Position numbers and translations under genes: made by a program. Shown here piece by piece: positions 1,034 through 58,700 of a stretch of DNA of 64,000 nucleotides. The DNA is taken from positions 217,620,001 through 217,684,000 of the forward strand of contig OZ024743.1 of assembly GCA_964016885.1 (NCBI GenBank), written 5' to 3'. The DNA is from Eledone cirrhosa. Lineage: Eukaryota. Below the pieces are notes generated by a model, which saw nothing but the letters and a program-made list of their open reading frames with translations, had not been told where the DNA came from and did no database searches. The first letter of the stretch is position 1. Each line of letters opens with the position of its first letter.

Positions 1034-2159
1034 ACACGACTTCCTTCCATATATCTATCATTTCCCAAATACTTTTCTCAACAGTACAATAAAGAAATAA
1101 TTGTGCTTCTTGATTATATTTCGCTAAGTTTCTTCCACGCTTGTATCCCCTTAACGACAGTTTAATTAACGAATACTGTCTCATTATATAAAATCAATTA
1201 ATCTCCAGTTTTAATTAGCAATTAAAGAATCGAAACTGTCAGGGTTGCTTATGGTAAAAGAGGGCTGTAAATAATTCAAAATAGCATGGAAAAAATGAGT
1301 AAAACTTTAAAGTCTAAACCGAGCAGGAACGAATGTTATTATTGGTGCAGTGGAAGCGAGATTATATATCATTAAAATATTGTTATTGTGGATAACTTTC
1401 ATTGTTTTTATTAGGAGTATGCACTGGTTATACCTCATTGCAACTTTTCCAGAATAATGTCAGAATAAATTCCAGAATAATATTACAGAGAGAGCGGTAG
1501 TATGTATTGCACAATATTGGCTTTTGCATTACTTCAACGATAATGATTACTGATGAAAGTCACAGGCACCGAAAGACGAGCTGTTAGAAAAATGTGCTAC
1601 ATTGAATTATAATAATAATATAAATTACAATTGCATAATATCATTATATATATATAATGTAAAATTACCACTAAGGACTCCACTTATTCATATATAGGAG
1701 CTACGTCTAACGAATTTAAAGTAAGATGTAATACTCACAAACATAGTTTTAAAAATACCGCATTAGCTAATACAACATCTTTGGCTGAAACAATTAATAA
1801 TTATAGAAAAAAGAATATCAATTACAACCTGGCCTGGAGCGTGCTCAAAAGGGCCACCCCTTATCAAAATAACAGATATGAGTGTAGATTATGGTCCCAG
1901 GAACTTTTTGAAATAATGAAATCTAAGTATATCCTATTAAATAAGCGACAAGAATTAATTATATCTTGCAATCATAGCATTAGAAGAGCCTTCAAATATT
2001 ATAAACCTAATTAATATACACCTCATACTTATATTTTACATATTATTATAATTAGTTTTTTTTAATCTAGTTAACCTATAATTAGTACTTTACTACAGAG
2101 AACTCCATAATTTTATTTCCCCCTTAGAGCTCTCTTTTCCTAAAATTAATACCTAAAAG

Positions 2160-2724: not shown

Positions 2725-2860
2725 TCATCATTTCTGAAGACAGCATGTATCTGTGAAGGTATGTATATTTCCTCTGATATTTTGTAATATTTTTACATAG
2801 ATCTATATGATATACATACCAACACACATATACATCCTAGAAACGATCGTAAAATGATGA
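2725..2860 (+). ncRNA. Type I hammerhead ribozyme with ~100 nt stem II
   Basis: Stem I TCATCATTT/AAATGATGA; CTGAAGA at 2734; stem II ATGTAT..GGTATGTATAT/ATATACATACC..ATACAT; GAAA at 2840; palindromic CGATCG; GTA cleavage triplet. Confidence 0.85.
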
Positions 2861-8035: not shown

Positions 8036-8299
8036 TATTTTCCGTTGTGTTGTAATATAAATATTACATTAGTACAAATTTACCAGTACTCTTCTTTAAA
8101 ATAATTAAAAGACATTTTCCCACATCACACAAATACCACAAAATCCTAAACCCTACCACTATAAGACTGTCATACTCTACAGCGTTAAACCTTGAACAAC
8201 ACATAAAAAAGATCAATACTAGAAGGTTAAACGAAAACACTGAGAACTTAAGTACAAAGAACACAAAAAAAAAAAACAGTAAACAATACACTACAGAAC

Positions 8300-9061
8300 A
8301 TAAATAAACCACACCTAAGTTCGTCCGCAATACTACTCCAGAGAAAACCCAACGTACACAACTGTAACTGCACCTATCCTGACAACTGCCCCCTCGGCAA
8401 TAACTGCCTGGAAAAAAATATTATTTATAAGTGTACCATTAAATCCGGAGGCAACGAGTGGTATTACGTGGGATCAACGGCAACATCGTTTAAATCTCGA
8501 TTGTATAGGCATTCTTACTCAATAAAACACCAGAGCCAAAGAAATGTAACAACTTTAGCAGAAAAAGCTTGGACGCTCAGGGATAGCGATCAAAAGTTTA
8601 CCCTAAAATGGGAAAAATTAGCTAAAACCCAAAGCTTTTCCAGGAGCCAAAATTTCTGCAAATTGTGTAATCTTGAGATTTATTACATAATCACACACAA
8701 GAAGAAACTGCTGAATAACAGAATTGAACGAACATTATTCTGCCGTCACAGAACTAAAACCCTTTTTTCCCACTACAAGCCGAACATTACATAAAAGAGG
8801 GACATCCCCCAACTATATAAACCTTAATCTAGTTAGAAAAATATAAAAACAATCTCTTCTCAACATATATTAATAACCTTAAATTACCACACTAATAATG
8901 GAAAGATATGCTGATGAGAATAGGTACAAATATGCGATAATGAATGTGTCTAAAAACGTCCATAAGTATGTATATATATGTGAAAATGTATATAAATAAG
9001 TAAATATATATATATGTTTGATGTGTATAGTTAGATGTAAGTGTATTCATGTATTAAAGTG

Positions 9062-9126
<65 letters not shown>

Positions 9127-9836
9127 ATATGTGTATATGGATGTGTATGTATGTGTATGTGTGTACACATGGACTAGAGTATGTATGTATATATGTGTGT
9201 GTCTATACGTGTGTATATAAAGATAAGTTGAGTATGAAAATGTATACACATGAGTGCGTATGTATGTACATGAATACATGTGTGTATATATATGTGTATG
9301 CATGTGTATATATATGTAAGTATGAATATGTGAATTGTGAGTATATGTATTTTGTAGAGGTGTGCAAATATATTTGTTTGTGAATGCGTGGGTGAAAGGA
9401 TACGTACACTTGAAAGAAAAATTTAAGTCTGAATGTTAATTAAGTGCAAACACAAAACCAACCACGCATATCTTTACTATCTCTAATCCTTCTATAGATT
9501 TAGAAAAATAACCAATAATATATTCTATAAAAAATGTCAAAACAACAGATGGGAATCTAATTACTCACTGCCACCAAGAATTCTCACTGCTATCGAAAAA
9601 CCACTCCTTCAACTATTCTTCTAACAACTTCACCCCTCCCTCCTAATATTCTCTATAAAAACTAAATAGGTCCTCAGTAATATTATTCTGATGAAATGAC
9701 AGTAAATAATAACATTGAAATATTGAATGTCTGCATAACTACAAGTTTGTAGATAGCAGCTGTTTTAGGTTATGTAACTGTTATAGAAACACGTGTCAAT
9801 AAATTCCTTTCAACTAAACTGTATCCATTCAAATCT

Positions 9837-15625: not shown

Positions 15626-15653
15626 GTGGTTACACAACAGTTAGTTCACCATA

Positions 15654-15693
15654 CCGAGAACAATTGTTTCACCTTCGCGGATCTTCAGCTCGG
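15654..15693 (-). ncRNA. Minimal type I hammerhead ribozyme
   Basis: CCGAG-CTGAAGA-TCCGCGAAGGT-GAAA-CAATTG-TT-CTCGG on the minus strand. Confidence 0.85.
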
Positions 15694-15778
15694 GATGTGT
15701 ATGGTTATAGGAACATAACCATACATGTCCCGAGCTGTGTATGGTTATAGGAACCAAGTTCCTATAACCATACACATC

Positions 15779-15817
15779 CCGAGCTGAAGATCCGCGAGGT
15801 GAAACAATTGTTCTCGG
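15779..15817 (+). ncRNA. Minimal type I hammerhead ribozyme
   Basis: CCGAG-CTGAAGA-TCCGCGAGGT-GAAA-CAATTG-TT-CTCGG. Confidence 0.85.
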
Positions 15818-15911
15818 TATGGTGAACTAACTGTTGTGTAACCACTTCTACCGAACTCGTCCCTTGGACTGAGTGCTCTACCACTACGGATATTACCTTG
15901 CAGTGTTCCAC

Positions 15912-17487: not shown

Positions 17488-19248
17488 ATGTATATGTATG
17501 CCTCTCTATTCCTATTTGCCTCTCTCCATATCTATTTATGCACCTGCGTGTATGTCTCTGTGTGTGTAAATGCATGGTATGTCTCTGCTCACAGAGATCA
17601 GTGTATAAGTTACCTAATACGCCAAAACGCATGAATAAATAAAACAAATTACCAAAATCAAAGGAAACAGGAATAGAGGATGAATAAAGAAGAATATTAT
17701 ACAGAGTTTTCAATGGTTTTATCTGTCTGTTTTCGTATCTATCAATCAGTGTATGGTTGTGAATAATTTATTGACTAAACTTGTATATATAAACAATTTG
17801 CATTAAATATAAAGCAGTGATATTTCGATCAATGACATGAAAACAAAATTCACATTTCGTGTCTTTCTTTTTCTTTTTGTACATTAGACGAGTTATTGCT
17901 GGAATTGTGTGGCTTTTTTTAGGACTATTAACCTCATCTATTTTGTTTCGTATTCACAAAATATTTTGGAACTGTATAGCATAATGGATTAGAACTTTGA
18001 AATATAAAAAACATGCGTTAAATATAAAAGACCTTTGTTCAAGTTTAGCCAAAATTGAAGAAAGCGTATGCATTATATTTTTTTTATTAACATTACCGTT
18101 CCACAAAAAAATAAACCATGATTGTTTTGAGGTTTGATTTGGTTTCTCAAAAGTACATCTGTTTATTGCCTCCAGGCATCATTTTTATAGATGTTTGGCT
18201 TTTATTTTATCAAACTATTTATTTTTCTTGGCAAATTGTTTTTTCGGCTATTTTGGAAATATTTTCAGTTGAAGAATAACTCGGAGTCGTAATATTAAGC
18301 ATATTTATTTTTTCTAACTGATTTATCAGTTAAATGTGAATTTAAATTATTTACTTTGGGAGAGTTGCAGCGGCAAGATTACCACTTATTCGAGAGAGAT
18401 ATTAATGTATTTTTGACCAGATAGAAAAGCAAAAGTTAAGTGCAATTTTTTTTATTATTATTTATAAATGTTTGAAATCCTACGCAATCTCTGTGCATGT
18501 CTTATGGTGATTTCACATCATAGTCAATATTCCATTGAAAAAGTTATATTCAATTTTAGAGATAGAACATTATTAATAACGATCTACAAAAGTCAAACAA
18601 GGTAAAGAGTTTAGTACAACTCACATATCCGGCATGGTGTTGCTACTGTTACTAACTAAAACAACTCTGAGCTTTTCCATGCAACTGTCATCCTGTCGAT
18701 TAACAGTTACATCAATTCTACATCTCACAGGTTATTATCTGTCCACAATCAATGTTATAGCTAATACAACAGTCGACTTTTCTCCGAACTAGCATGGCAC
18801 ATAACACTTTTCTACCCCATCCAATGCACCATCGACTCACATGATTTTTGTTGTGTCTAAATGACTGCATAAATAAAATACAAAAGATTTGATTAATAGA
18901 ACAGGCAAAACAAATTGCTCGAAGCACCATTTTAATATCATTTGATATGATAATTGGTTATGTATGGTCTGCAAAGTAAATGTGTAGACATATGTTTGTT
19001 TATTATTATGAGTAATTAAGTAGAGTTGATGAGGTTGAAATTTCTCAATTACAAGAGCCATTCATTTTTTAATAGGTCACAAAATGTCACCTCGAATCTT
19101 GTATCTCCCAAATACTGGCTAGGCGTTTTGAACCATTAAGCCAAGAAGCTTAGAATCATTAGACCACTATCCACGTGACAATTCTTAGCCATTTTGAATT
19201 CGTTTCTGGCGGGGATCATTTAAGAAAAATCTTTGTCCAATTGAGTTT

Positions 19249-19330
19249 GTTTCCTGATGATTTCGAAACTCGTTGATTTATCCAAGATCGGATATTTCCA
19301 AAATTCGAATGAAACCTCCAGGGTAGAGAT
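19249..19330 (+). ncRNA. Type I hammerhead ribozyme, extended stem II
   Basis: GTTTC-CTGATGA-TTTCGAA...TTCGAAT-GAAA-CCTCCAGGG-TA-GAGAT. Confidence 0.8.
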
Positions 19331-19502
19331 ATATTTGAAGATGTTGGTATGTTTATGTACACTTTTTCTTCTAACTTTGATTTTGTAAGTCTAGTCAATT
19401 TCTAAAGGCTATCAGAAATACTAGGTAATTTTTCTGTGGCTGTGAATCGCGGATAAAAAGCTATCATTTATTTATCTATTATTTCTTCATAGGTATTTTA
19501 TC

Positions 19503-20454: not shown

Positions 20455-21440
20455 TGTCCATAGAATTATTTGATAAGATATATACTCCATTTCCTCTCCC
20501 AATTAGCATAATCAACCACACAAAAAATCAATTAAACCAGGCTATAAGATTAAAAGGCACCTATGAAGAAATAATAGATAAATAAACGACAGCCATCTAT
20601 GCGCGATCAACAGCTATAGAATATTTACCCACCATTTCAATAGCACGTGGAAATCGATTAAATATATCGTCAACCATACACAATTAGGTATAAAATTAAA
20701 GTTAGAAGAAAAAATGCATATACACATACCAGGATTACATTTCTACCCTTAGGGTTTCGTTCGCTTTCGGAAATATCCTATCAAGGATATATTCTCGAGC
20801 TTCGAACTCATCAGGAAACAAACTCACTTGGACAAAGATTTTTCTTAAATGATCCCCGCCAGAAACGAATTCAAAGTGGCTAATAACTGTGACGTGGCAG
20901 TGGTCAAGTCAGAAAGAATGTGATTGGTGCCTTACGGCTAGTGGGCTGGTTGCTAGAAAGCGCAGCCTAATGTTGCCTCAATTGCATCTCAACCTTATAT
21001 AGGAGATTATCAAATATAAAGATTTACATATACACAAACTAGACAAAGTCATACATATTTTTTTGGCAACCATCCACGATGTGGCACAATGATGAATTAA
21101 TAAATTAAATAATTGTTTCTACTTTGGGCACAAGGCCAGCAAATACCCAGTTCATTACTGGTACTTTTTTTTATCGACCCCGTAAGGATGAAAGGCAAAG
21201 TCAACCTCGGCGGGATTTGAACTCAGATCGTAAAGGGACGTAACTATGCTGGAAAGCATGGCGTCCGACCCTCTACTGATACTGCCAATCCACTGCCCTC
21301 GTTTTAAATTAAATAATGAGAGCAATATACTATAAATTATGTCCATAGAATCATTTGATAAGATATCTACCCCATTTCCTCTCCCAATTAGCATAATCTA
21401 CCACACAAACTGACTTTGTCTAGTTTGTGTATATGTAAAT

Positions 21441-24709: not shown

Positions 24710-25176
24710 ATGTGTGTGTGTGGGGGGGGGGGGTATATAACCGGTGAAGATCCATCTGTTCACAGTAAGAGCTATCAATCATATATTCATACCTCGTAAT
24801 ATATCACTATAAGGAAAAAGTTTCATTACTTTTAGCTAAACCAATGCACCTGTAGTAGATGTTAATGAAGATGTTAAAAGCAAATAACTGTATATTCGCG
24901 CGCGCGCGCGTGTGTGTCTGTGTGTATAAATATATATATATATATATATATTTATTAAAATAACAGATTAAAGTTTAAGCAAAGAAGCTATATACAATAC
25001 ATAAACAGAGAAAGCCTTAAGCGATACTCCGACCAACTCCATCTCACTCAACAAACATTAGAATATACTTAAGTATTATCCCAATTTAGTGTTTGGGGTG
25101 CTAACTAATCAGTATTTCGTGGATAGCTGGTTGTATTATTTTATATGAGACATTATTAAATAAATATTTCTTTCCT

Positions 25177-25299
25177 TCCAGACGGCCGTTTCGTTATAAG
25201 ATTTCTACAATTTGTGATAAATAATTTCCAGGTTATGCAGAAACTTGTATACAATCCATAGTTTTATACACAAGCGGGTCTTATAAACTCATCAGTGGA
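25177..25299 (-). ncRNA. Type I hammerhead ribozyme with branched ~95 nt stem II
   Basis: TCCA-CTGATGA-GTTTATAAGA...TCTTATAAC-GAAA-CGGCCG-TC-TGGA. Internal hairpins CTTGTGTATA/TGTATACAAG and TTTCTGCA/TGTAGAAA. Confidence 0.9.
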
Positions 25300-25392
25300 T
25301 GCCCAAATAATATCGATATAAGAATTATATCGATATTAATAGAATGGTGATGGTCTCCCTCAGCGCTAAGAAGAGACTGGTAGATTAGAAAA

Positions 25393-25992
25393 TCATATAC
25401 AAGCAAGTTCACAGGTTGATTTTTTTAGTTTCAGAAGATCCAGTTAAAGGTGAAAGCAGTGATTCTTTGCTTAAACTTTAATATGTTATTTTAATAAATA
25501 TTTGCTCTACGGTTCTTATATATTTGATATATATTTATCCTTATCGAGCCCTCTTTGGATTTTAGTCTTCAAATTTATTATTATTATTACTATATATATA
25601 TGGCGGTGGATTGGCATATCAGTAGAGGGTCGGACGCTATCCAGCATAGTTACGTCCCTTTAGGATCTGAGTTCAAATCCCGCCGAGGTTGACTTTGCCT
25701 TTCATCCTTACGGGGTCGATAAAATAAAGTACCAGTAATGCACTGGTTAATTGCTGGCCTTGTGCCTAAAGTAGAAACAATTATTACTATATATAGTAAT
25801 AATAATAATAAATTTGAAGACTAAAATCCAAAGAGGGCTCGATAAGGATAAATATATATCAAATATATAAGAACTGTAGAGCAAATATTTATTAAAATAA
25901 CAGATTAAAGTTTAAGCAAAGAATCGCTGCTTTCACCCTTAACGGGATCTTCTGAAACTAAAAAAATCAATCTGTGAACTTGCTTGTATATG
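25393..25992. repeat. ~200 bp inverted repeat with a SINE family 1 copy (25602-25785, +) as the spacer; further partial copies at 24950-24986 and 26410-26495
   Basis: ATATACAAGCAAGTTCACAG...TTTTAGTCTTCAAATTTATTATT and its reverse complement flank the SINE. Confidence 0.9.
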
Positions 25993-26488
25993 TTATGGCG
26001 TATATATTATATATACTGGTACATGTGTGCATATGGTTATGTGTATACGTGAGTTCTGCGTCTGTGAGAGTGTGCGGGTTCGTACGTATGTAGGGTGTAT
26101 ATGTGTACTTTGTGTTTTGGTTGTCGTACGTATGTATACATATGTGAATTTACATGTAGGTATGTGTGTGCGCGTTATATATGTAATTATGTGTGTATAT
26201 TTATATACGTTTATATAATTATATGTATACACGCACACACACTCACATATATATATATATATATATATATAAATATATATTTGTTTATGTGTATTTGGTG
26301 TATCTTCGTTTTTATCCGTTCTTTGCCAGGCAACGTTTCCACGAACCAAAGTATCGTCTTCCTGTCTTCCTTCGGTTGCAACGTTTTTTTAAATATTCAC
26401 TTCTGCGTTCAGAGATTGATTTTTTTAGTTTCAGAAGATCCCGTCAAGGGTGAAAGCAACGATTATTTGCTTAAACTTTAATCTGTTA

Positions 26489-26558
<70 letters not shown>

Positions 26559-33048: not shown

Positions 33049-33988
<940 letters not shown>

Positions 33989-36754: not shown

Positions 36755-37246
<492 letters not shown>

Positions 37247-42006: not shown

Positions 42007-42080
42007 GGCCGGTTAGCTCAGTTGGTTAGAGCGTTGTGCTAATAACGCGAATGTCGTGGTTTCGAGCCCCATACCGACCA
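42007..42080 (+). tRNA. tRNA-Ile-AAT: tRNA-Ile(AAT), with mismatches in acceptor and T stems
   Basis: GGCCGGTTAGCTCAGTTGGTTAGAGC..CTAATAA..TTCGAGCCCCATACCGACCA. Confidence 0.7.
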
Positions 42081-42351
42081 GATTTAAATCCTTTCTTTTG
42101 CACTTCTTCCTAAAATATGTTTATCTTAAGACGATTCTGTCAATATATCTTTATCTCTATTATTTATTTACACATCCTCTGAAAAAGGGACGCTACCTAA
42201 TATATAGTCCTACATCTACAAACATGTCAAAGGAATTAATACATTACGATATTTTTGTGTATTATCTATTTTAATCATTTCAATAACTTCCTTACATTTC
42301 TTTACTCTGTTTTATTGAGTTGATTGCGAAATTTACAGAGAATTTTTAACT

Positions 42352-42425
42352 GGTTGGTTAGCTCAGTTGGTTAGAGCGTCGTGCTAATAACGCGAATGTC
42401 GTGTGTTCGAGCTCCATACTGGCCA
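42352..42425 (+). pseudogene. tRNA-Ile(AAT), T stem disrupted
   Basis: D and anticodon arms intact; GTGTG/TCCAT mispaired. Confidence 0.75.
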
Positions 42426-42785
42426 TACTTATCCCATTCTTATGTACTGCTTTCTAAAATTTTACTTATTTAATTTATTTTTATATGTAGGAAGCTTTTG
42501 GCTTTCTGTAAATAGCGGTCTTGTATTTGCTAGAAATAGAAATCTAATCAACTCTCATAAACAACACCTCGTCCACTTGAAAAAAAAGGTCACTTTCGAA
42601 AATGTAGTCCAATATCCACACAGTTTGCCAAGGGAGGTATTACCTGGAAATCATTTCATCTTAAGGCGATTGTGTGAATATATGTTTATCTCTATTATCT
42701 GTTTTATTCTCTTCAGAGAATATCATAACCTTTCTTAACTCTGATTTATCGTGTTAATTGTGAATATTACAGGTAGAATTTGGCT

Positions 42786-42858
42786 AGCCGGTTTCCTCAG
42801 TTGGTTAAAACCTCACCTAATAAGGCGAAAGTCGAGAGATTTAACACCATGTTGGCTA
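42786..42858 (+). pseudogene. tRNA-Ile pseudogene
   Basis: Degenerate; CTAATAA loop retained, B-box lost. Confidence 0.7.
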
Positions 42859-43165
42859 GATGTTTGGTTCTTTTACAATGTTATATAAAACTTTATTTTT
42901 TTTATATATTTAGGTCCTCATGGGCTCCTTTATAAATAGTCCGGTAAATAGTTACAACGTGATTGATATAGAAACCTAATTTGCTCTGAAAACACTACAT
43001 TCTCGTCTTTTGATAAATAGACACTTTCGAAAATGTAGACCTACGTTTACATGTCATACCATGGCAGTTAATATCTGGAAATATTTTTTATTTCATAGAA
43101 CATTATTAACTTTCTTTATTCTGTTTTATTATGTTAATTGGGAATTTTGCAGATAACCTATGTAT

Positions 43166-43239
43166 GGTGGGTTAGTTCAGTCAATTAGATCTTCGTGCTA
43201 ATAACGCGAATGTCGGGGGTTCGAGCCCCATACTGGCCA
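43166..43239 (+). pseudogene. tRNA-Ile(AAT) pseudogene
   Basis: D arm and acceptor stem mutated; 3' half near consensus. Confidence 0.75.
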
Positions 43240-43419
43240 TGTTTACTTAAGATTTAAATTAGAGTTTATAACTTTTCTATAAGCCTTTTAATCGGAGTAA
43301 AATTCTTGTTTTTTTTAGTTTTTATTCACATATTTCTATTGAAATGGGATTAGATATATATTATTTTTTAAATAATCAATGTTGGCTGATCCAAGCAAAC
43401 GACCAAGTTTAGTATGATA

Positions 43420-43780
43420 TAGTATACTATACTATACTATAATTTCCTATAATATACTATACTATACAATATTATTCTATACTGTACCATACTATATTAT
43501 ACTATACTGTACTATGCTATAAATATACTATACTATAATATGCTGTACTATACTATACTAAACTAAACTATTCAATACTATACTAAACTATACTATACTA
43601 TACTATACTATACTATACTATACTATACTATACTATACTATACCATACTATACTATACTATACTATACTATACTATACTATACTATACTATACTATACTA
43701 TACTATACTATACTATACTATACTATACTATACTATACTATACTATACTATACTATACTATACTATACTATATGTACTAT
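43420..43780. repeat. (TACTA)n satellite; other tracts at ~44615-44885, 48865-49100, 50220-50330 and 50620-50690
   Basis: Direct pentamer tandem repeats. Confidence 0.95.
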
Positions 43781-43890
43781 GTTATGGATATCTGAAATGT
43801 ATCTTCCTTATTTACTTCACATACCTCCATTTCCCACCTTTAATATATTATTCATTTTAAAATTTTATTTTGCCGTGATTCATTCTATCT

Positions 43891-43964
43891 TGCCGGTTAG
43901 CTCAGTCGGTTAGAGCGTCGTGCTAATAACGCGAATGTCGTGGGTTCAAGCCCCATACTGGCCA
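43891..43964 (+). tRNA. tRNA-Ile-AAT: tRNA-Ile(AAT), near intact (G1 changed to T)
   Basis: Full cloverleaf except the 1-72 pair; T-rich terminator downstream. Confidence 0.75.
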
Positions 43965-44313
43965 CAGTTGTTACAATTTTTTGCACTGATTTGTAAAATT
44001 TTACTTATTAAAAGTATTGTTATATGTAGGAAGGTTACCTTTTTGTAAATAATACTCAAAATGGTCTTCTACCTGCTGGAAATAGAAAACTAATCTGCTC
44101 TCAAAAACAACACATCATCGTTTTAAATAAAAGGACACTTTCGAAAATATGGTCCTATATCCACACAGTTTGCTTTGGGAGGTATTACCTGGAAATCCTT
44201 TACTCTTAAGGCGGTACTGTGAATATATGACTATCTCCATTATCACAGAGTATCATAATCCTACTTAACTCTGATTTATTGTGTTAATTGTGAATATTAG
44301 GGAGGATTTGGCT

Positions 44314-44386
44314 ATCCGGTTACCTCAGGTGGTTAAAGCCTCACCTAATAAGGCGAAAGTCGAGAGATTTAACACCATGTTGACCA
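44314..44386 (+). pseudogene. tRNA-Ile pseudogene (paralog of 42786)
   Basis: Shares the lesions CCTCACCTAATAAGGCGAAAGTCGAGAGATTTAACACC. Confidence 0.7.
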
Positions 44387-44984
44387 GATGTTTGGTTCTT
44401 TTACAATGTTATATAAAACTTTATTCTTTTTTTAATATGTAGGTTCTCATGGGCTCCTTTATAAAGAGTACGGTAAATAGTTACAACGTGATTGATATAG
44501 AAACCTAATTGGCTCTGAAAAACACTACATTCTCGTCTTTTGATAAATGAACACTTTCGAAAATATAGACCTACGTTTGCGTATCATAACATGGCAGTTA
44601 ATATCTGCAGATCTATACTATTCTATACTATACTATACTATACTATACTATACTATACTATATTATACTGTACTATACTATAATATACTCTACTATACTA
44701 TACTATACTATACTATACTATACTATACTATACTATACTATACTATACTATACTATACTATACTATACTATACTATACTATACTATACTATACTATACTA
44801 TACTATACTATACTATACTATACTATACTATACACTATACTATATTATACTGTACTATACTATGCTATACTATACTATACTATACTCTAATTTGTTATAG
44901 CATTTTGATATGGATATCTGAAATGTATCTTCCTCATTTACTTTGTCAAAATAAAACTTTATTTTACCAACTAAGGTATCATCT

Positions 44985-45058
44985 GGCCGGTTAGCTCAGT
45001 CGGTTATAGAATCGTTCTAATAACGCGAGTGTCGTGGGTTCTAACCCCATGCTCACCA
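44985..45058 (+). pseudogene. tRNA-Ile(AAT) pseudogene
   Basis: Several stem mismatches; T run downstream. Confidence 0.75.
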
Positions 45059-45523
45059 CAGTTAATCCTTTTTTTTTTTATTACTTTCTAAAATTTTACC
45101 TATCAAAATTATTTTTATATGTAGGCAGCTTTTGCCTAATTTGTAAACAGTATTCTAAATTGTCTTGTACCTGCTAGAAATAGAACCCTATTTCTATTCT
45201 GATCTCAAAGACGTACACGTTTGAAAATATAGTCCTACCACTACAAATTATGCCATGGGAGTTAATACCTGGAAATCCTATTATCTTAAGACGATTCTGT
45301 CAATATATCTTTATCTTTATTATCTATTTATAATTCGTCTGAAAAAGATTTCACTATCTAATATATAGTGCTACATACACAAGTGTGTCAAGGTAGTTAA
45401 TACATGGAGATCTTTTTGTGTATCTATCACTATTGTCTATTTTAACCATTTCACAGAACTTCATTACCTTTCTTTACTCTGTTTTATTGAGATAATTGTG
45501 AAAATTAGTAGTAAGCCATATAA

Positions 45524-45597
45524 GGCCGGTTAGCTCAGTTGGTTAGAACATCGTGCTAATAACGGGAATGTCATGCGTTCGAGTCCCATACTGGCCA
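45524..45597 (+). pseudogene. tRNA-Ile(AAT), probable pseudogene
   Basis: Acceptor stem intact; single mismatches in D, anticodon and T stems. Confidence 0.75.
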
Positions 45598-45867
45598 TGT
45601 TCACCTACATTCACAAATCATGCCATGCGAGTAATACCTAGAAATCATTTTTTTTTTTATTTTAAAGTGGCTCTATCAATATGTGTATAACTTTGCCTTT
45701 TATCCTTACGGGGTCGATAAAATAAAGTACCAGTAATGGACAGGGGATTAGCTGGCCTTGTGCCAAAAGTAGAAACAATTATTATTTAATTCAATTATTT
45801 CACATCATTAGTTTTCTTTATTCTGCTTCATTGTGTTATTTGTGTACTTTACCGGCAACATTTGTCT

Positions 45868-45940
45868 GGCCGGTTAGTTCAGTCGGTAGACTGTCGTGTT
45901 AATAGCGCTAAAGTCGTGGGTTCGACCCCCATACTGACCA
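45868..45940 (+). pseudogene. tRNA-Ile(AAT) pseudogene
   Basis: Multiple substitutions; B-box retained. Confidence 0.75.
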
Positions 45941-46378
45941 TATTTACTTAAATTAATGCTTAAAATGTTGCCATAAAACTTTTAATCGGAGTAAAATATG
46001 TTTAGTAAAATATATTTTTTGTTTTTGTTTTTTCAAAGGCGGTTATATTCATGTATATTTCGCATTTTCAGAGCCCCGGTCCTAACGCCTAATTTTTGCT
46101 GGACCGGCAATCGCTCTGTATAATCAGCTCCTGATTGTTACTGTAATTCTATAAAATCCAGCTTCTATGATTATTTTAGGCGAACGCCAACCAGCTTGAA
46201 ACAGACTGTCAGATACTCTCGCTTCTTTCGCTGAAAAGAAGTAAGTGACATCGTCACTACTTTAAAACTGATAGCGTATAGTCTTTTAAATGTTTTAAAT
46301 TAAACATGCGGTATGTTGCCAAATATACTATACAAACATTCATGTATACATCACTATTTCAGAGCACCAATCCTAAAA

Positions 46379-46427
<49 letters not shown>

Positions 46428-46429
<2 letters not shown>

Positions 46430-46679
46430 AGAATTATTATGTCTCAACAACAAACTTTTGACCAATCCTTTTGACAATCACCTATGGAATTAGCCCCCTG
46501 AGAAGCTCGGCTATTCAAATACCAGGATAATAATGTTCATTTAGTCCAGAATTAGCCGTCGAAACGGCTTGAGCTCAGCCGTCGGGGTCCTACTCGTTCC
46601 TATTAGCCACTCTACTACCCTAAGTATTGAGTACTTTGGTGTGTTATGGTCCATCTGGTTCCTTACCACATTTCCTTCG

Positions 46680-46682
<3 letters not shown>
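46428..46682 (+). mobile_element. HHR mini-element, family B, inserted in (TA)n within the tRNA array
   Basis: Absent from the paralogous site at ~48785-48802, which has only a short (TA)n. Confidence 0.88.
46493..46588 (+). ncRNA. Type I hammerhead ribozyme, family B (core CTGAGAA, C3-A8 mismatch)
   Basis: GCCCC-CTGAGAA-GCTCGGCTA...TAGCCGTC-GAAA-CGGCT(TGAGCTC)AGCCG-TC-GGGGT. Confidence 0.75.
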
Positions 46683-46721
<39 letters not shown>

Positions 46722-46969
46722 TTTTTCCAATAATCAATGTTGGTTTATCTGAGCAAACGACCAAGTCTAGTTTAAAATACTATACTATACTTTACTATAG
46801 TATACTATACTTTACTTAACTATATTATAATATACTATACTATATATAATATAGCATATTGTTATGGATATCTGAAATGTATCTTCCTCATTTACTACAC
46901 ATATCTCCAATTCCCACCTTTAATATTGTATTATAATAACTCATTAATTTGACAATTGTGGTTGCAACT

Positions 46970-47044
46970 GGCCTGTTAGCTCAGTTGGTTTGAGCGTCGT
47001 GCTGATAACGCGAATGATCTTGGGTTCGAGCCCCATACTGGCCG
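46970..47044 (+). pseudogene. tRNA-Ile copy with GAT anticodon
   Basis: Loop CTGATAA; 1 nt insertion in the variable region; acceptor stem mismatch; discriminator G. Confidence 0.7.
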
Positions 47045-47302
47045 CAGTTGTTTCATTCTTTTGCACTGCTTTCTAAAATTTCATTTTAAATGTAGGAAAT
47101 TTTTGCCACTTTTGAGAATAGCATTCTAAATGGTCTTCTACCGGCTAGAAATAAAAATGTAATCGGCTCCCAGCAACACATCCTCGTTTTTAAATAATAT
47201 AGTCCTATATCAACGGTTTGCCAAGGGAGGTAATACTTGGAAATCCTGATATCTTAAGGTGATTCTGTCAACATATATCTTCCTCAATTATCTATTTTAA
47301 TC

Positions 47303-47486
47303 ATTGGCAGTATCGGTAGAGGGTCGGACGCCATGCTTTGATGCATAGAGTTACGGCCCTTTCCAATATGAGCTTAAATCCCACTGAGGTTAACTTTGCC
47401 TTTCATCCTTACGGGGTCGATAAAATAAAGTACCAGTAATGCACTGGGTAATTTGCTGGCCTTGTGCCAAAAGTAGAAACAATTAT
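47303..47486 (+). mobile_element. SINE family 1 with TSD; 3' fragment also at 45688-45785
   Basis: ATTATCTATTTTAATCATT on both sides; empty site in the paralog at ~49418-49436. Confidence 0.92.
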
Positions 47487-47566
47487 CTATTTTAATCATT
47501 TCACAGAACTTCATTACTTTTCTTTAATCTTTTTTATTGAATTAATTGGGAAATTTACTTATGAAA

Positions 47567-47604
47567 ACCGGTTGGCTCAGTTGGTTAGGTCCCCATAATG
47601 GCTA
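47567..47604 (+). pseudogene. Internally deleted tRNA-Ile remnant (paralog of 49510-49574)
   Basis: CCGGTTGGCTCAGTTGGTTAGG joined directly to TCCCCATAATGGCTA. Confidence 0.65.
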
Positions 47605-48241
47605 TGGCTACGTATATTTTAAATTAGTTTTTAAATCGTCACTAAATACATTTTAAACATAGTATAACATTTTTAGACAGAAATGTTTGCGTTTAAAATT
47701 TTTTAGATTTCTTTTATTCATAACTATGTTTTCAAATATAATTATATATGCATTCATTTTTTTTCAGTAATCAGTGTTGGTTGATCCAAGCAAACGACTG
47801 ATTCTAGTTTAACAAGATGTAAGCACTCCATATATAATTATATCTTGTTAAACTACGTACGTCGTTTGTAATATAAATCTCTGAGTGAAACCTGGTTTGT
47901 TCTCGTTAATATATGTACATATTTATAAACTCTATACCATACACTAGCATAAATATATGTATACTGAATTTTACTATACTGTACTATAATATTCAATATT
48001 ATGTTATAGCATATTCTTATGGATATAATACTATACTATATTATATTATACTATACTACATTATCTTACTATAATATTTAAAAAAAATTAATATACTATA
48101 TTATACTATACTATATTATATAATAGCATATTGTTATGGCTATATGAAATGCAACTTCCTTATTCACTTCACATATCTTCATTTCCCACCTGCACTATTT
48201 TATTTTGTTAATAGTTTATTTTGACAAACTTAATTCTGACT

Positions 48242-48306
48242 GGCCGGTTAACTCAGTTGAATAGAGCATCCTGCTAATAACGCGAAAGTCGCGCCTCAAC
48301 TGGCGA
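48242..48306 (+). pseudogene. tRNA-Ile pseudogene lacking the T arm
   Basis: 5' two-thirds recognisable; B-box deleted. Confidence 0.7.
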
Positions 48307-48567
48307 TGTTTAGTTAAATTAATTCTTTAAATTTTGCCATAAAACTGTTTATCGGAGTAAAATATTTTTAGTAAAATATATTTTCGATTTTTGTTTTTAA
48401 TCATACTTTCCTTTTCAAATGTGGTTATATTCATGTATATTTCGCTATTTCAGAGTACCAATCCTAATGCCTAATATTTGTTGGACTGGCAATCGCTCTG
48501 TATAATCAGCTCCATATTATTACTGAAATACTATGAGAATCCAGCTTCTATAATTTTCGGTGAAGGC

Positions 48568-48631
48568 AAGGGAGTACGTGGCTCTGATGAACGACAACCA
48601 GCGTGAAACAGACTGCCAGATGCTCTCCCTT
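48568..48631 (+). ncRNA. Type I hammerhead ribozyme in the tRNA-array spacer (U16.1 changed to C)
   Basis: AAGGGAGTA..CT-CTGATGA-ACG(ACAACCAG)CGT-GAAA-CAGACTG-CC-AG.TGCTCTCCCTT. The paralog at 46181-46220 keeps GAAACAGACTGTCAGATACTC. Confidence 0.7.
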
Positions 48632-49222
48632 CTTTCGTCGAAAAGAAGTAAGTGACATCTCACTACTTTAAAACTGATAACGTATGGTCTTTTAAATGTT
48701 TTAAATTAAACATACGGTATGTTGCCAAATATACTATACATACATTCATATATACATCGCTATTTCAGAGCACCAATCCTAATATCATATATATATATAT
48801 ACATTTTTTCCAATAACCAATGTTGGTTTATCCGAGCAAACGACCAAGTCTAGTTTAAAATCCTATATTATACTTTACTATAGTATACTATACTTTACTT
48901 TACTATACTATACTATACTATACTATACTATACTATACTATACTATAATAAACTATACTGTACTATACTATACTATACTATACTATACTATACTATACTA
49001 TACTATACTATACTATACTATACTATGCTATACTATACTATAATATACTATAATATACTATACTATACTAGACTATACTATACTATACTATATATACTAT
49101 GTTATAGCATATTGTTATGGATATCTGAAATATATCTTCCTCATTTACTACACATATCTCCAATTCCCACCTTTAATATTATATTATTTTAACTCATTAA
49201 TTTGACAATTGTGGTTCCAAGT

Positions 49223-49296
49223 GGCCTGTTAGCTCAGTTGGTTTGAGCATCGTGTTAATAACGCGAATGTCGTGGGTTCGAGCCCCATACTGGCCG
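49223..49296 (+). tRNA. tRNA-Ile-AAT: tRNA-Ile(AAT) variant (paralog of 46970)
   Basis: Cloverleaf mostly intact; one acceptor mismatch; discriminator G. Confidence 0.6.
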
Positions 49297-49509
49297 CAGT
49301 TGTTTCATTCATAGGAAATTTTCAAAAATATAGTCCTATATCAACGGTTTGCTAAGGGAGGTAATACTTGGAAATCCTGATATCTTAAGGTGATTCTGTC
49401 AACATATATCTTTCTCTATTATCTATTTTAATCATTTCACAGAACTTAATTACTTTTCTTTACTCTGTTTTATTGAATTAATTGGGAAATTTGCTTACGA
49501 AAACTATTT

Positions 49510-49574
49510 GGCCGGTTGACTCAGTTGGTTAGGTCGTCGCACTAATTGCGTGGGTTCGATCCCCATAATGGCTA
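49510..49574 (+). pseudogene. tRNA-Ile pseudogene with deletion
   Basis: 3' anticodon stem and variable region missing. Confidence 0.7.
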
Positions 49575-50088
49575 TGGCTACGTATATTTTAAATTAGTTT
49601 TTAAAACGTCACTAAATACATTTTAAACGTAGTAAAACATTTTTAGACAGAAATGTTTAGGTTTAAAATTTTTTAGATTTCTTTTATTCATAACTATGTT
49701 TTCAAATATAATTATATATGCTTACATTTTTTTTATAATCAGTGTTGGTTAATCCAAGCAAACGACCGATTCTAGTTTAACAAGATGTAAGCACTCCATA
49801 TATAATTAAACTACGTGCGTCGTTTGTAATATAAATCTCAGAGTGAAACCTGGTTTGTTCTCGTTAATATATGTACATATTTATAAACTCTATACCATAC
49901 ACTAGCATAAATATATTTATACTGAATTGTACAATACTACACTATAATATACTATACTATATTATATTATACTATACTATATTATGCTATAGGAACGATC
50001 GACTTTCGTCAAATCGGACCGAGGGAACAATGTTTCCGTTGGTCTTTCCAATTGCTAATACTATCTATCGGTCGCAACTCCAGGTAGA

Positions 50089-50207
50089 AGGAGCAACGTG
50101 AAATAAAGTGTCTTGCTCAAGGACATAGCGCATCGCCTGGTCCAGGAATCGAACTCACAACCTTACGATTGCGAATCCAATTCTCTAACCACTCAGCCAC
50201 ACGCCTT
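50089..50207 (-). mobile_element. SINE family 2 head
   Basis: Reverse complement: AGGCGTGTGGCTGAGTGGTTAGAG..GTGAGTTCGATTCC..TTGAGCAAGACACTTTATTTCACGTTGCTCC. Confidence 0.85.
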
Positions 50208-50454
50208 CATATTATGCTATACTATAATATATTCTATACTATCTATACTATACTATGCTATATTATACTATACTATACTATACTATACTATACTATACTA
50301 TACTGTAATATATTATACTATACTATATTATGTTATAGCATATTGTTATGGCTATATGAAATGCAACTTCCTTATTCACTTCACATATCTTCACCCCCCC
50401 CCCCTATACTGTTTATTTTGTTAATAGTTTAATTTGACAAATTTAACTTTAATT

Positions 50455-50527
50455 GGCCGGTTAACACAGTCTGTTAGATCGTCGTGCTAAAAACGCGTTG
50501 TCGTGGGTTCGAGCCCCATACTGGCCA
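50455..50527 (+). pseudogene. tRNA-Ile pseudogene (anticodon mutated to AAA)
   Basis: D arm broken; loop CTAAAAA. Confidence 0.72.
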
Positions 50528-50813
50528 CGTTATGTATATATATATATATATATATATACTATGTTTTCTTCCAATAATCCATGTTGGTTTATCCGAGCAA
50601 ACGACGAAGTTTAATTTAAAATACTATACTTTACTATAGTATACTATACTTTACTATACTATACTATACTATACTATCTATACTATACTATGTTATAGCA
50701 TATTGTTATGGATATATGAAATGCAACTTCCTTATTTACTTCACATATCTCCTTTACCAACCTTTAGTATTTTATTATTTTAAAACTTTATTTTGACAAC
50801 TATGCTTCCAAGT

Positions 50814-50887
50814 GGCCGGTTAGCTCAGTCGGTTAGAGCTTCGTGCTAATAACGCGAATGTCGTGGGTTCGAGCCCCATACCGGCCA
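50814..50887 (+). tRNA. tRNA-Ile-AAT: tRNA-Ile(AAT), intact
   Basis: GGCCGGT/ACCGGCC acceptor, GCTC/GAGC D stem, TCGTG-CTAATAA-CGCGA, GTGGG-TTCGAGC-CCCAT, discriminator A, TTTT shortly downstream. Confidence 0.93.
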
Positions 50888-55749: not shown

Positions 55750-58700
55750 ACAGCGTGATAATGCCACACAAAAGTCACGTGGAGTGACGAAACCACCGGA
55801 GACAAGTAATGCACCGGTGGTTATGTAATCATACATTCGCCAATCCTCGATAAAAGTGTTTAAATGTCGAACCTAAACAGTTCGAATAACGGTGAAATGG
55901 AGACTAGAATTTCATGTGACAGACTCTCACCCAACAGGTGCTCCCTGGCTCAGCAGCAGGGACCTGGCTGTCAACCAAATACTGCTGGTGTCGGAGGAAG
56001 AAGAAGAAGGAAAGGGATCAGAACCAACTGGACGAAAGAATTGAATAGAACTGTTATGCAATGTTACCTGAAGAGTAACCCCAAGGAGAAAGGCTACAGG
56101 AAAAGGATGCATAACATCTGGAACGAGATTGGTCCATTTAAATTAGATGAACAAAAACTGGCCGGGCAGGCTCGGGTAATAAGAACTAATGGGTGGATAA
56201 GCGAGCTGGAACTGGAGGAACTGAGCAGAGAGATTAGCTTGGAGATGGAGGGTGGAGTATGCCAGGCAAACGAGCCAGTGGGAAATGAAGGTGAAGGGGT
56301 CGAGAGAACGGAGGAACCACCCGTAACAAACAATGATCTGAATGCTGAGATAAATAATACCTGGAACAGAGATACGGCCACTGGGGAGATGAATGCTGAC
56401 GGGCTAGGAAAAGATTTGGTACATATCCTAAACTTAGTGGTAGATAAATTGAACAATGATAGTGGGAGACCTATGAACCTAAGATTTGTAGACAAGAAAA
56501 AGTTAAAAGAAACAACAGCAAAGGTAAACAAAGTCATCCCATACCTTGAGGCGAGGAGCCTTCACCAGTGCAACAATATCCTCAAAGCAACAGCAAATAC
56601 AGTGAGGAAACTACTTGGTATAAAAGCGAGAGGAAACAACAGACAAGAAAGAGCAGAGCCTTGGTGGAAGAAACGACTGAGTGGTCAAATCAGGGAAATG
56701 AGAAATGACATTGGAAAGCTTGAGTCCCTACTGAATGGGACACTAAAAACCATAGACACTAAAAATAGACTGGAAATAAAGTACAAAACTAGGAGGAAAA
56801 AGCTAAATATTATCATAGAGGAACTGAAGCAACGCATTGTGGCAAAGAGTGCAAAAATTATGCGATACGAGAGCAGAGTCAGCCAGTATAGACAGAACGG
56901 CATGTTCGACAACAACCAGAAGATGCTGTTTGGACAGCTTGAAGGGAAAGAAAGAGGCAACGACTTGATCCCTGAGGCGGAACAAACTAAAGCATTCTGG
57001 AGGGGAATATGGGAGCAGGATGTTAAACATAATGACCAGGCAGTGTGGATTGAGACAGTACAGAAGGAGATTAGTGAACAGGCACACCAACAAATTGATT
57101 TGAGTATCACAGTTGAAACTCTTAAGGGGCAGGCCAAAAAACTAACCAACTGTAAATCACCTGGCCCAGATGGTGTGCAGGGGTATTGGATTAAAAACAT
57201 AACATCCCTCCACCCGAAACTGACAACCATGTTCAATGACTGCTTGATGTCAGGTGAGGTACCAGAGTGGTTGACAAAAGGTACCACAGTTCTGATAAGG
57301 AAAGACCGAATCAAGGGTAATGATGTTACCAACTATAGACCTATCACATGTCTGTCCGTAATGTGGAAACTGTTGACAAGCATTATGTCTGAGGAAATCT
57401 ACCATCACCTCCACACAAACAACTTGTTACCGGACGAACAGAAAGGATGCCGAAAGAAGTCACGTGGTACAAAGGACCAGTTACTTATTGATAAGATGGT
57501 AATGAGGAATTGCAAGAGGAGACACACTGGTCTTGCCGTGGGATGGATAGACTACAAAAAGGCATTTCACTGGTGCCTCATTCTTGGATCACCAAAAGCC
57601 TGGAGATATTCAAGGTGGCAGATAGCATCAGACAGTTGTTGGGAAAAAGTATGAAGTCCTGGGAAACAGAGTTAACATCAACTGGAGAATCCTTGGGAAG
57701 CGTGAAGATCAAGAGAGGTATCTTCCAGGGAGATAGTCTGTCCCCTCTGTTATTTGTCCTTGCCCTGATGCCCCTGACCAGTGTACTGCGAAAAGTGAGA
57801 GCAGGAGACAGGTTGGGAAAGGGAGGGCTTACCATCAATCACCTCCTCTTCATGGACGATCTTAAGCTCTTCGGGAAGAGTGAGAAGGAGTTGGATGTGC
57901 TTGTTGACACTGTCCGTATTTTCAGCAATGATATATGTATGCCATTTGGTATTAGTAAGTGTGGAGTCATTGTGATGACGAGGGGTAAGTTGAGCAGAAG
58001 TAACGGATTCCAGATACCAACAGGTGAGATGATAAAGGAAATTGACCCTGAGGAAGTATACAAGTATTTGGGCGTTCTGGAGGCTGATGGCATAAAGAAC
58101 AAAAAAATGAAGGAATTGATAAGAACTGAATACCTTCGGAGAGTAAGGAGCGTATTAAAGTCACATCTGAACAGTAGGAATGCCATAAGTGCAGTAAATT
58201 CCCGAGCTGTGTCTATTATTAGGTACAGTGCGGGAATTCTGAAATGGAATGTTGCTGAACAAAAAGAAATGGCTAGGAAGACTAGGAAGCTATTGACTAT
58301 CTACAATATGTTCCACAAGGGGAGTGATGTCGATAGACTCTATTTAAGGAGATTTGAAGTTGGAAGAGGTCTTATCAGCATAGAGGACTGTGTTCAGATG
58401 GAGAAAAACAACCTACACAAATACGTGACTGATAGTAAGGAGCCAATGCTCAGAACTGTACTGAAGGAGGGGACAATAGGCCAGGGGATGTCCAAGGAGG
58501 AAATAACATCAAGGAGAAAGAGCAGCCTTCAGGAAAAATCCTTTCATAGTACCTTCTTTGAGAAAACTGAATTTAGAGATCCACAGACATGGAACTGTTT
58601 GAAAAGAGGAGACCTTAAAAAGGCTAGAGAAGGAATGTTAATAGCTGCGCAGGAGCAGGCCCTCAAAACGAAGTGGTTGAAAAACCACATTTACAAGGAG

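What the first reader, a model, noticed from the sequence alone, without database searches (positions are those of the whole stretch)
25177..25299. HHR whose stem II contains a multi-branch domain
Seen: fully canonical core (CTGATGA-G...C-GAAA-CGGCCG-TC) and a ~9 bp basal stem II opening into two further hairpins. Inference: an accessory domain grafted onto stem II, as in engineered aptazymes, which might modulate cleavage. This is one of the best candidates for an active ribozyme here.
Basis: partly seen in the sequence, partly recalled or inferred. Interest (0 to 1): 0.72.

Follow-up and report, generated by a model that had tools for sequence, protein, structure and literature searches.

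The report
Branched, knotted hammerhead in Penelope-type repeat
This is a complete hammerhead ribozyme motif with an unusually large two-hairpin arm, lying in a cut-down copy of an abundant non-coding repeat that is likely moved by Penelope-like jumping genes; the arm's fold is kept by paired mutations and is predicted to brace the ribozyme through a small knot rather than act as a sensor, and cutting is untested.

Summary
Observation confirmed, on the minus strand: intact type I hammerhead core, 4-bp stem I, 9-bp basal stem II opening into two hairpins, palindromic stem III. It lies in a 406-nt, 5'-truncated copy of a non-coding repeat (units about 680-760 bp, five subfamilies, fixed 3' end, mostly beside (TA)n, partial tandems): a retrozyme-like element, likely mobilised by Hydra-clade Penelope-like elements (PLEs), whose own hammerheads here also have 90-100-nt stems II. 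No autonomous partner was found. Between subfamilies hairpin IIa shows 4 two-sided and 2 G-U changes and hairpin IIb is invariant, so the branch is under selection. The junction linker GCCCR is complementary to UGGGC just 5' of stem I in all subfamilies, a predicted stem I-II docking pseudoknot; three unrelated families show the same placement (one-sided or no covariation). No evidence for an aptazyme-like switch. 'Best candidate for activity' is doubtful: the monomer is predicted to misfold (+6.2 kcal/mol), the palindrome favours a dimer, this copy is solo and has lost a linker G. No RNA data were available. The scan noted long-armed and branched PLE hammerheads before, in this and other genomes. 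New variant of a known kind.

The parts
24989..25394 (-). 5'-truncated solo copy (406 nt) of subfamily A of a non-coding PLE-type repeat (full unit about 755 bp)
   Evidence: 94% over 407 nt to the unit in L028; 92-98% to other A copies; 27 full units 715-809 bp, most 747-761
25301..25305 (-). UGGGC, 5' strand of the predicted pseudoknot, 1 nt upstream of stem I
   Evidence: invariant in 5 subfamily majorities while upstream letters vary; pair counts
25296..25299 (-). stem I, 5' strand (UCCA)
   Evidence: U-A to C-G change in subfamily B
25289..25295 (-). catalytic core CUGAUGA (C3-A9)
   Evidence: sequence; Rfam alignment
25279..25288 (-). basal stem II, 5' strand (G10.1, bulged U, 8 bp)
   Evidence: top pair reads A-U, U-A or G-U across subfamilies
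25275..25278 (-). junction linker CCCG (family GCCCR; first G deleted in this copy), 3' strand of the predicted pseudoknot
25243..25275 (-). sub-hairpin IIa (10-12 bp)
   Evidence: 4 of 10 pairs with two-sided change, 95% of cells paired in 26 sequences; mean pair probability 0.97 in context
25203..25242 (-). sub-hairpin IIb (7 bp UUCUACA/UGUAGAA plus a 3-bp inner stem)
   Evidence: invariant among 5 subfamily majorities; 98.9% of cells paired
25193..25201 (-). basal stem II, 3' strand
25181..25192 (-). GAAA, palindromic stem III ACGGCCGU and C17; predicted cut between 25181 and 25180
   Evidence: palindrome reads ACGGCCGU, ACGAUCGU or ACGAGUCGU across subfamilies; cut site from hammerhead numbering (established knowledge)
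25177..25180 (-). stem I, 3' strand (UGGA)
24989..25176 (-). conserved 3' segment ending at the family's fixed 3' end, 184-190 nt after the cut site; likely reverse-transcriptase binding and start region
   Evidence: ends at +184 to +190 in 30 of 30 loci selected to cover this segment; 77-81% identity between A, B and C against 52-65% for the 5' 440 nt; role inferred from PMC11167929

Best explanation
This is a type I hammerhead motif in a truncated copy of a non-coding, partly tandem repeat that is likely copied into (TA)n sites by a Hydra-clade Penelope-like reverse transcriptase, and its two-hairpin stem II is likely a structural brace for a ribozyme predicted to cut as a dimer. Shown: motif, repeat anatomy, five subfamilies, covariation of hairpin IIa and of the stem III palindrome, and complementarity of the junction linker GCCCR to UGGGC just 5' of stem I. 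Inferred: (1) a transcript carrying two units, or two transcripts, pairs through the 8-nt palindrome to give both cores a stable stem III; (2) the three-way junction holds GCCCR single-stranded so that it pairs with the 5' tail; the 4-bp stem I, the 4-5-bp knot and hairpin IIa would stack beside stem III, core, stem II and hairpin IIb, giving the stem I-II docking contact that fast hammerheads need; (3) cutting trims the element's RNA, with possible circularisation, while the borrowed RT starts about 190 nt downstream of the cut site and usually copies through an uncut or re-ligated site. This particular copy is likely a dead-on-arrival insertion with a weakened knot.
For: Repeat: 1629, 1613 and 2265 first-look candidates for subfamilies A, B, C, 40 scored each; 258 exact 26-nt matches across the A cut site; 2 clan copies in 400 kb of unselected DNA. 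Fixed 3' end and variable 5' ends; 29 of 30 junction-selected A loci show an upstream partial unit; B trimer with 679-bp period; no stop-free frame over 64 aa in A or B units. A coding PLE in the same genome has the Hydra hallmarks RWK, DKT, CxCX5C, CxxC and CxH (against PMC8557442 section 11); Hydra elements target (TA)n; two coding families carry 91-99-nt stems II with palindromic stem III. Covariation: (96.9% of cells paired; 7 pairs with two-sided change; slid controls 31-48% paired). Dimer: active dimer -60.3 against two monomers at -53.8 kcal/mol; the active dimer is also favoured in single A, B, C and F copies, where the active monomer is 2.7-6.2 above the MFE. Knot: the only helix of 4 bp or more between accessory loops and 33-nt flanks kept in all 4 larger subfamilies; 0 of 2000 flank-column shuffles gave as good a helix; U-A/U-G exchange and C-G to U-G in 11 of 41 B copies. 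Same placement in 3 sequence-unrelated families J, K, M; in K the 5 knot pairs are 97.5% paired and invariant while 2 of 6 basal stem II pairs covary (8 sequences). Such knots raise activity 20- to over 100-fold in tested hammerheads (PMC3088659 section 7).
Against: No cleavage, expression or RNA-end data. No coding element contiguous with the unit among 204 family loci, so the Hydra link rests on shared traits, not homology (no match beyond simple repeats). The knot has no two-sided change in either family tested. It is absent by my test from 5 of 10 long-stem-II families, including both coding ones (D, E); combined shuffle p 0.055 with A and 0.28 without. A 9-bp stem II is longer than in docked hammerheads and I could not model the geometry. 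Subfamily B has U-U at 10.1-11.1, and B, C and F often carry GUU or GUA triplets. My prior prediction that partial tandems start at the cut site was not replicated (6 of 63 raw, 4 after removing TA overhangs, 3.4 expected). In a PLE tested in vitro, cleavage needed protein and was not needed for insertion (PMC11167929), and only 1 of 9 Xenopus retrozyme dimers cleaved (bioRxiv 2026.07.22.740005).
Confidence: 0.55

Rival explanations
1. The branch is a binding site for the PLE protein: it recruits the RT/endonuclease to the non-coding RNA, and may let the protein switch on cleavage; the knot is incidental.
For: Hairpin IIb is invariant in sequence across subfamilies while IIa covaries. Long stems II are shared with coding Hydra elements. 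The Anolis PLE hammerhead cleaves only with its protein (PMC11167929). The accessory domain is 72-77% conserved against 52-65% for the 5' part of the unit.
Against: In the Anolis element, templates cut back to +20 of the ORF, past most of stem II, still worked. Copies that start downstream of the hammerhead are common, and the 3' segment is at least as conserved (77-81%). Families D and E share no visible sequence or junction with this domain.
Confidence: 0.22
2. The ribozyme is weak or silent and the branch is kept for RNA stability or compaction (for example of a circular unit); the knot, if formed, holds an inactive state.
For: Circular units fold more stably than shuffles (A -209.7 against -168.0 +/- 5.9 kcal/mol, 12 shuffles). 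29 of 30 copies selected to reach the cut site run through it. PLE hammerheads are weak in vitro (PMC4209133).
Against: Core, stem I and the palindrome are kept across five subfamilies with compensatory changes. 4 exact copies start at the cut site after TATATA against 0 at a same-context control site and 258 intact.
Confidence: 0.13
3. One reading: the branch is an aptamer-like sensor that allosterically gates cleavage.
For: Stem II is where engineered aptazymes are grafted (PMC12192606 figure legend); the domain is conserved in fold.
Against: The basal stem is a stable 8-9 bp, not a weak communication module (pair probability 0.86-0.87). Loops vary, no Rfam aptamer matches, and the host is a selfish repeat.
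Confidence: 0.05
4. The unit is only the terminal repeat (pLTR) of a coding PLE not sampled here, rather than a self-standing non-autonomous element.
For: Searches return only the 40 best-scoring places, so rare full-length masters could be missed; truncated PLE ends dominate such genomes.
Against: Head-to-tail units of 680-760 bp without ORF in A, B and C; 0 of 204 loci with a contiguous ORF.
Confidence: 0.05

Closest known systems
Type I hammerheads in PLE pseudo-LTRs (Cervera and de la Pena 2014, PMC4209133; parts 1-2 of 4 and passages read)
   Same: Type I topology, short stem I (4-5 bp), larger helix II (7-8 bp) with a bulged base near its 5' end, small palindromic helix III, dimer requirement, mostly solo truncated copies.
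   Different: Helix II carries a 78-nt three-way junction instead of a small loop; predicted knot with the 5' tail.
Hydra-clade PLEs and their hammerheads (Craig et al. 2021, PMC8557442; passages, section 11, File S1/S2 in supplement parts 2-3 of 59)
   Same: (TA)n targets, hammerhead near the 3' end, palindromic stem III; the coding PLE of this genome has the clade's protein motifs.
   Different: The 26 Hydra rows of File S2 have stem II of 3-7 bp and loop II of 3-10 nt (read by eye); this motif spans 96-97 nt there. The element has no ORF, and its 3' end lies about 190 nt after the cut, against about 45 and 70 nt in the two coding families seen here.
Animal non-LTR retrozymes / non-autonomous PLEs (PMC7229834 parts 2-3 of 6; bioRxiv 10.64898/2026.07.22.740005 parts 1-3 of 5; MRC1 passage in PMC8557442)
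   Same: Non-coding, low-GC tandem units with one type I hammerhead each; likely PLE-mobilised; unit length within the 51-972 bp range of the preprint.
   Different: Longer than the 170-400-nt circles first described; mostly 5'-truncated solos and 1.x-mers; non-canonical large stem II; circular RNA not shown.
Hammerheads with a stem I-stem II pseudoknot (Perreault et al. 2011, PMC3088659; sections 6, 7 and passages)
   Same: [quoted passage not shown]
   Different: Here the stem II strand of the knot is a linker of a three-way junction after 9 bp, not a terminal loop or tail; their stem-length analysis excluded repetitive type I motifs.

Membership tests
Type I hammerhead ribozyme (Rfam RF00163) | Core CUGANGA...GAAA...NUH around three helices, open end in stem I | tested here: met
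   covariation in stems I and II
Type I hammerhead ribozyme (Rfam RF00163) | Score at or above the Rfam gathering threshold | tested here: not met
   19.6 bits against GA 34, with a 92-nt insert in loop II
Type I hammerhead ribozyme (Rfam RF00163) | Site-specific self-cleavage after H17 | not testable with these tools
   needs in vitro assay; genomic 5'-end test inconclusive
PLE-type dimeric hammerhead | Short palindromic stem III, unstable as monomer, stable as dimer | tested here: met
   palindrome kept with two-sided change; computed energies
Non-LTR retrozyme / non-autonomous PLE | Non-coding tandem or partial-tandem units with one type I hammerhead each | tested here: met
Non-LTR retrozyme / non-autonomous PLE | Fixed 3' end, variable 5' truncation, microsatellite targets | tested here: met
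Non-LTR retrozyme / non-autonomous PLE | Expressed as linear and circular RNA | not testable with these tools
   no RNA holder listed
Non-LTR retrozyme / non-autonomous PLE | Homology to the pLTR of an autonomous PLE | tested here: inconclusive
   none to family E; 0 of 204 loci with a contiguous ORF; only 2 of many coding families examined
Hydra-clade PLE (autonomous) | ORF with RT (RWK, DKT), CxCX5C linker and C-terminal GIY-YIG endonuclease | tested here: not met
   the unit has no ORF; met by the separate element L091
Pseudoknot-docked hammerheads (Perreault 2011) | 4 or more base pairs joining the stem I and stem II peripheries | tested here: met
   5 bp in the family, 4 bp in this copy
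Pseudoknot-docked hammerheads (Perreault 2011) | Compensatory (two-sided) covariation or mutational rescue of the knot | tested here: inconclusive
   only one-sided changes: 3 of 5 pairs; none in family K
Allosteric ribozyme (aptazyme) | Ligand-binding domain joined by a weak communication module | tested here: not met
   stable basal stem, variable loops; no aptamer family match; ligand response itself not testable

The most novel reading that the evidence does not exclude
A natural hammerhead architecture not found in the papers searched: a long stem II opens into a junction or internal loop whose first strand pairs with the 5' tail of a short stem I. It recurs with different letters in at least four unrelated retroelement families of one genome and makes dimer-dependent PLE hammerheads fast at physiological Mg2+. 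Published PLE hammerheads might then look weak partly because constructs or descriptors left out the distal arm and the 5' tail.
Probability: 0.35. Interest if true: 0.62.

Novelty: new variant of a known kind. Interest (0 to 1): 0.42.

Why it matters
Why PLEs keep hammerheads that barely cut in vitro is an open question. This family gives a direct test: a natural peripheral domain with a predicted docking helix, five natural variants, and simple knock-out and rescue mutants. It also shows that standard models miss a class with thousands of candidate copies in one genome because loop II is 80-100 nt long. As a single locus the finding is ordinary: one damaged copy of a mobile repeat.

Tried and rejected
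Covariance model R1 had a structure string off by one column and was not used; R2 replaced it. No genome-wide model search was possible, so more distant relatives were sought only in held loci: R2 found only this motif as a strong hit in the window and 2 clan copies in 400 kb. No RNA holder listed; runs X1-X9 are DNA or of unknown kind and say nothing on expression; they show family-like pieces in organisms A, B and C and 3'-biased depth. Cut-site footprint: 3 of 29 junction-selected A loci start exactly at the cut site, one being the query's own locus, and 1 of 30 in a second sample; the prediction written beforehand failed in 63 further B, C and A loci after dropping 3 query loci, 1 duplicate and 3 without an alignment; mis-placed the cut site and was redone. 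Fisher test of pair-keeping changes between against within subfamilies was not significant when one-sided changes are pooled (6/3 against 35/50, p 0.17). Hydra ORF fragments near family copies (L109, L111, L115, L154 and others) were rejected as neighbours; L111 and L115 are separated by (TA)n, L154 by unrelated sequence. My first label 'Neptune' for the coding PLE was dropped for Hydra. Pfam and PDB sequence searches gave nothing for the 785-aa ORF; the protein search gave 419 mostly unnamed relatives. The inverted repeats flanking the copy (24948-24986, 25394-25598, 25788-25992) belong to another repeat, not to this element. Luense et al. 2017 on dimeric PLE hammerheads is not held; it is cited only through PMC6765202 (passages). 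Supplements of the bioRxiv preprint were not seen and may list similar long motifs.

Full report
Observation. The motif is real and lies on the minus strand: stem I UCCA/UGGA, core CUGAUGA, G10.1-C11.1 plus 8 pairs with one bulged U, two hairpins (25275-25243 and 25242-25203), GAAA, the palindrome ACGGCCGU and C17 at 25181. The minus strand folds into this shape (z -2.39); the plus strand does not (z +0.94). Rfam lists nothing here at gathering thresholds, but Hammerhead_1 aligns at 19.6 bits with 92 nt looped out. A descriptor gave no long-stem-II hit in 30 simulated windows.

Context. The genome is a 3.0-Gb animal assembly. The motif belongs to a dispersed repeat: 1629 first-look candidates, the 40 scored 96-100% identical, and 258 exact matches of a 26-mer across the cut site. 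Copies share a 3' end 184-190 nt after the cut site (30 of 30 loci selected to cover that segment), mostly followed by (TA)n, and have scattered 5' ends. The full unit is about 755 bp (27 units) and has no stop-free frame over 55 aa. Of 30 loci chosen for the unit junction, 29 show a partial unit before the junction. The window copy is a solo 406-nt piece, 25394-24989, set among pieces of other repeats. Related subfamilies B (679 bp, a trimer in L032) and C (about 700 bp) have the same anatomy. Clustering 167 distinct hammerhead sequences gave five subfamilies of 79, 41, 28, 9 and 3, plus 7 singletons.

The mobilising enzyme. Two coding PLE families occur in the same window. One has a 785-aa ORF in tandem copies with RWK, DKT, CxCX5C, CxxC and CxH, the hallmarks of the Hydra clade, which inserts into (TA)n (PMC8557442 section 11; lead from earlier scan notes). 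Both families carry 3' hammerheads with 91-99-nt, rod-shaped stems II and palindromic stems III. Published Hydra hammerheads have stem II of 3-7 bp and loops of 3-10 nt (File S2). I found no sequence homology between the repeat and family E and no ORF contiguous with the unit in 204 family loci. The Hydra link is therefore an inference from target site, end structure and hammerhead style. The anatomy fits non-autonomous PLEs and non-LTR retrozymes (PMC7229834; bioRxiv 2026.07.22.740005). A start of reverse transcription inside the RNA, downstream of the hammerhead, was shown for an Anolis PLE (PMC11167929) and would explain the fixed 3' end.

Is the branch under selection? Yes. RNAalifold predicts both hairpins unaided. 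In 26 sequences from five subfamilies 96.9% of cells pair, against 31-48% for slid controls; 4 of 10 pairs of IIa change on both sides and IIb hardly varies. These counts share ancestry, so I also compared events: between the four larger subfamilies the IIa/IIb pairs show 4 two-sided, 2 G-U and 1 broken state, whereas rare within-subfamily changes split 3, 30 and 48. Pooling one- and two-sided changes the contrast is not significant (p 0.17). The G-U exchanges point to RNA of this strand. One break is fixed in most of B (A-A in 37 of 41).

What the branch may do. Searching for helices between unpaired accessory nucleotides and the 33-nt flanks, kept in all four larger subfamilies, gave one: UGGGC, 1 nt 5' of stem I, with the junction linker GCCCR; 0 of 2000 flank-column shuffles matched it. 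Changes are one-sided only (U-A/U-G; C-G to U-G in 11 of 41 B copies). Pseudoknots joining stems I and II are common and strongly activating in other hammerheads (PMC3088659). Of ten long-stem-II families sampled from 1.2 Mb of held sequence, four (this one, J, K, M) pair the strand after the basal stem II best with their own 5' flank; one more is second best and five show nothing, including both coding families (binomial 0.013 with this family, 0.053 without; shuffle-combined 0.055 and 0.28). In K the five knot pairs are invariant while the adjacent stem covaries. I take the knot as likely but unproven. A stack of stem I, knot and IIa beside stem III, core, stem II and IIb is my inference; no 3D model was possible. 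The window copy has lost the first G of the linker, which cuts the duplex from -7.4 to -4.0 kcal/mol.

Activity. As a monomer the active fold is 6.2 kcal/mol above a misfold in which the core pairs with the cleavage triplet (probability about 3e-5). A double hammerhead through the palindrome is -60.3 against -53.8 for two monomers, and one copy each of A, B, C and F behaves alike. These energies ignore tertiary contacts and the knot. The palindrome changes as a palindrome (GGCC to GAUC; GAGUC in B), as expected for dimeric PLE hammerheads (PMC4209133; PMC6765202). No RNA run was listed. A genomic footprint of cutting is inconclusive: 3 of 29 and 1 of 30 A copies begin at the cut site and 4 exact TATATA-flanked starts were found against 0 at a control site, but a prediction written beforehand failed in 63 further loci (6 raw, 4 after removing TA overhangs, 3.4 expected). 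Most copies run through the site, so the template was mostly uncut or re-ligated.

Comparison and novelty. It works like, and is by sequence a member of, the PLE-type dimeric type I hammerheads; its host fits non-autonomous PLEs, with expression and partner homology untested. It fails the test for an aptazyme. I found no description of a branched 97-nt stem II, or of a knot made from a junction linker, in nine paper searches; Luense et al. 2017 and the preprint's supplements were not seen. Earlier notes of this scan report long-armed and branched PLE hammerheads in this and other genomes, probably including this family, and knots in other families; they are unchecked and I count them as leads only.

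Verdict. New variant of a known kind; interest 0.42. The element identity is well supported, the dimer model moderately, the docking role of the knot least.

Noticed in passing
window 2726-2859 (+), with 1658-2014 (+): Hammerhead with a 99-nt rod-like stem II, 8-bp stem I and palindrome CGAUCG, about 700 nt after a GIY-YIG-type fragment. A family-D match lies downstream of that domain in 10 of 12 loci; 3' end about 70 nt after the cut, into (TA)n.
   Followed up: partly
window 9683-9802 (+), with 8252-8794 (+); L091: Hammerhead with a 91-nt rod-like stem II and palindrome CACGUG in the 3' UTR of a very young Hydra-type PLE (785-aa ORF, tandem period 3578 bp; 150 of 150 scored hits 99-100% identical, 60,873 candidates).
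   Followed up: partly
window 20737-20821 (-) and 19247-19332 (+): Family J hammerheads with a 48-50-nt stem II, longer stem III and a predicted UGAGUU/ARCUCG knot placed as in the finding.
   Followed up: partly
L145:1980-3144, L118, L274, L049, L243, L005, L236: Family K: units about 530 bp apart in L145, hammerhead with a 52-nt stem II, palindrome CUAAUUAG and an invariant GAGAA/UUCUC knot beside a covarying basal stem.
   Followed up: partly
window 15652-15695 (-), 15777-15819 (+), 36824-36868 (-): Small hammerhead-like motifs with short stem II; the first two have the palindrome CAAUUG.
   Followed up: no
window 42007-50887 (+): Ten tRNA matches, anticodon read by eye mostly as AAU (Ile), several degenerate, interleaved with short-period repeats.
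   Followed up: no
window 55864-58931 and 60057-63699 (+); 33159-33958: Two broken non-LTR reverse-transcriptase ORF sets and a transposase-like fragment, labelled by eye.
   Followed up: no
L095:1571-1580 and the matching site in subfamily C: Splice-donor-like AG/GUAUGA near the start of the A and C units with a pyrimidine-rich AG about 300 nt on; PLE terminal repeats are known to hold introns. Not tested.
   Followed up: no
window 24948-24986, 25394-25598, 25788-25992, 26407-26524: Inverted and direct pieces of another abundant repeat surround the copy, and a third repeat sits at 25600-25790.
   Followed up: partly
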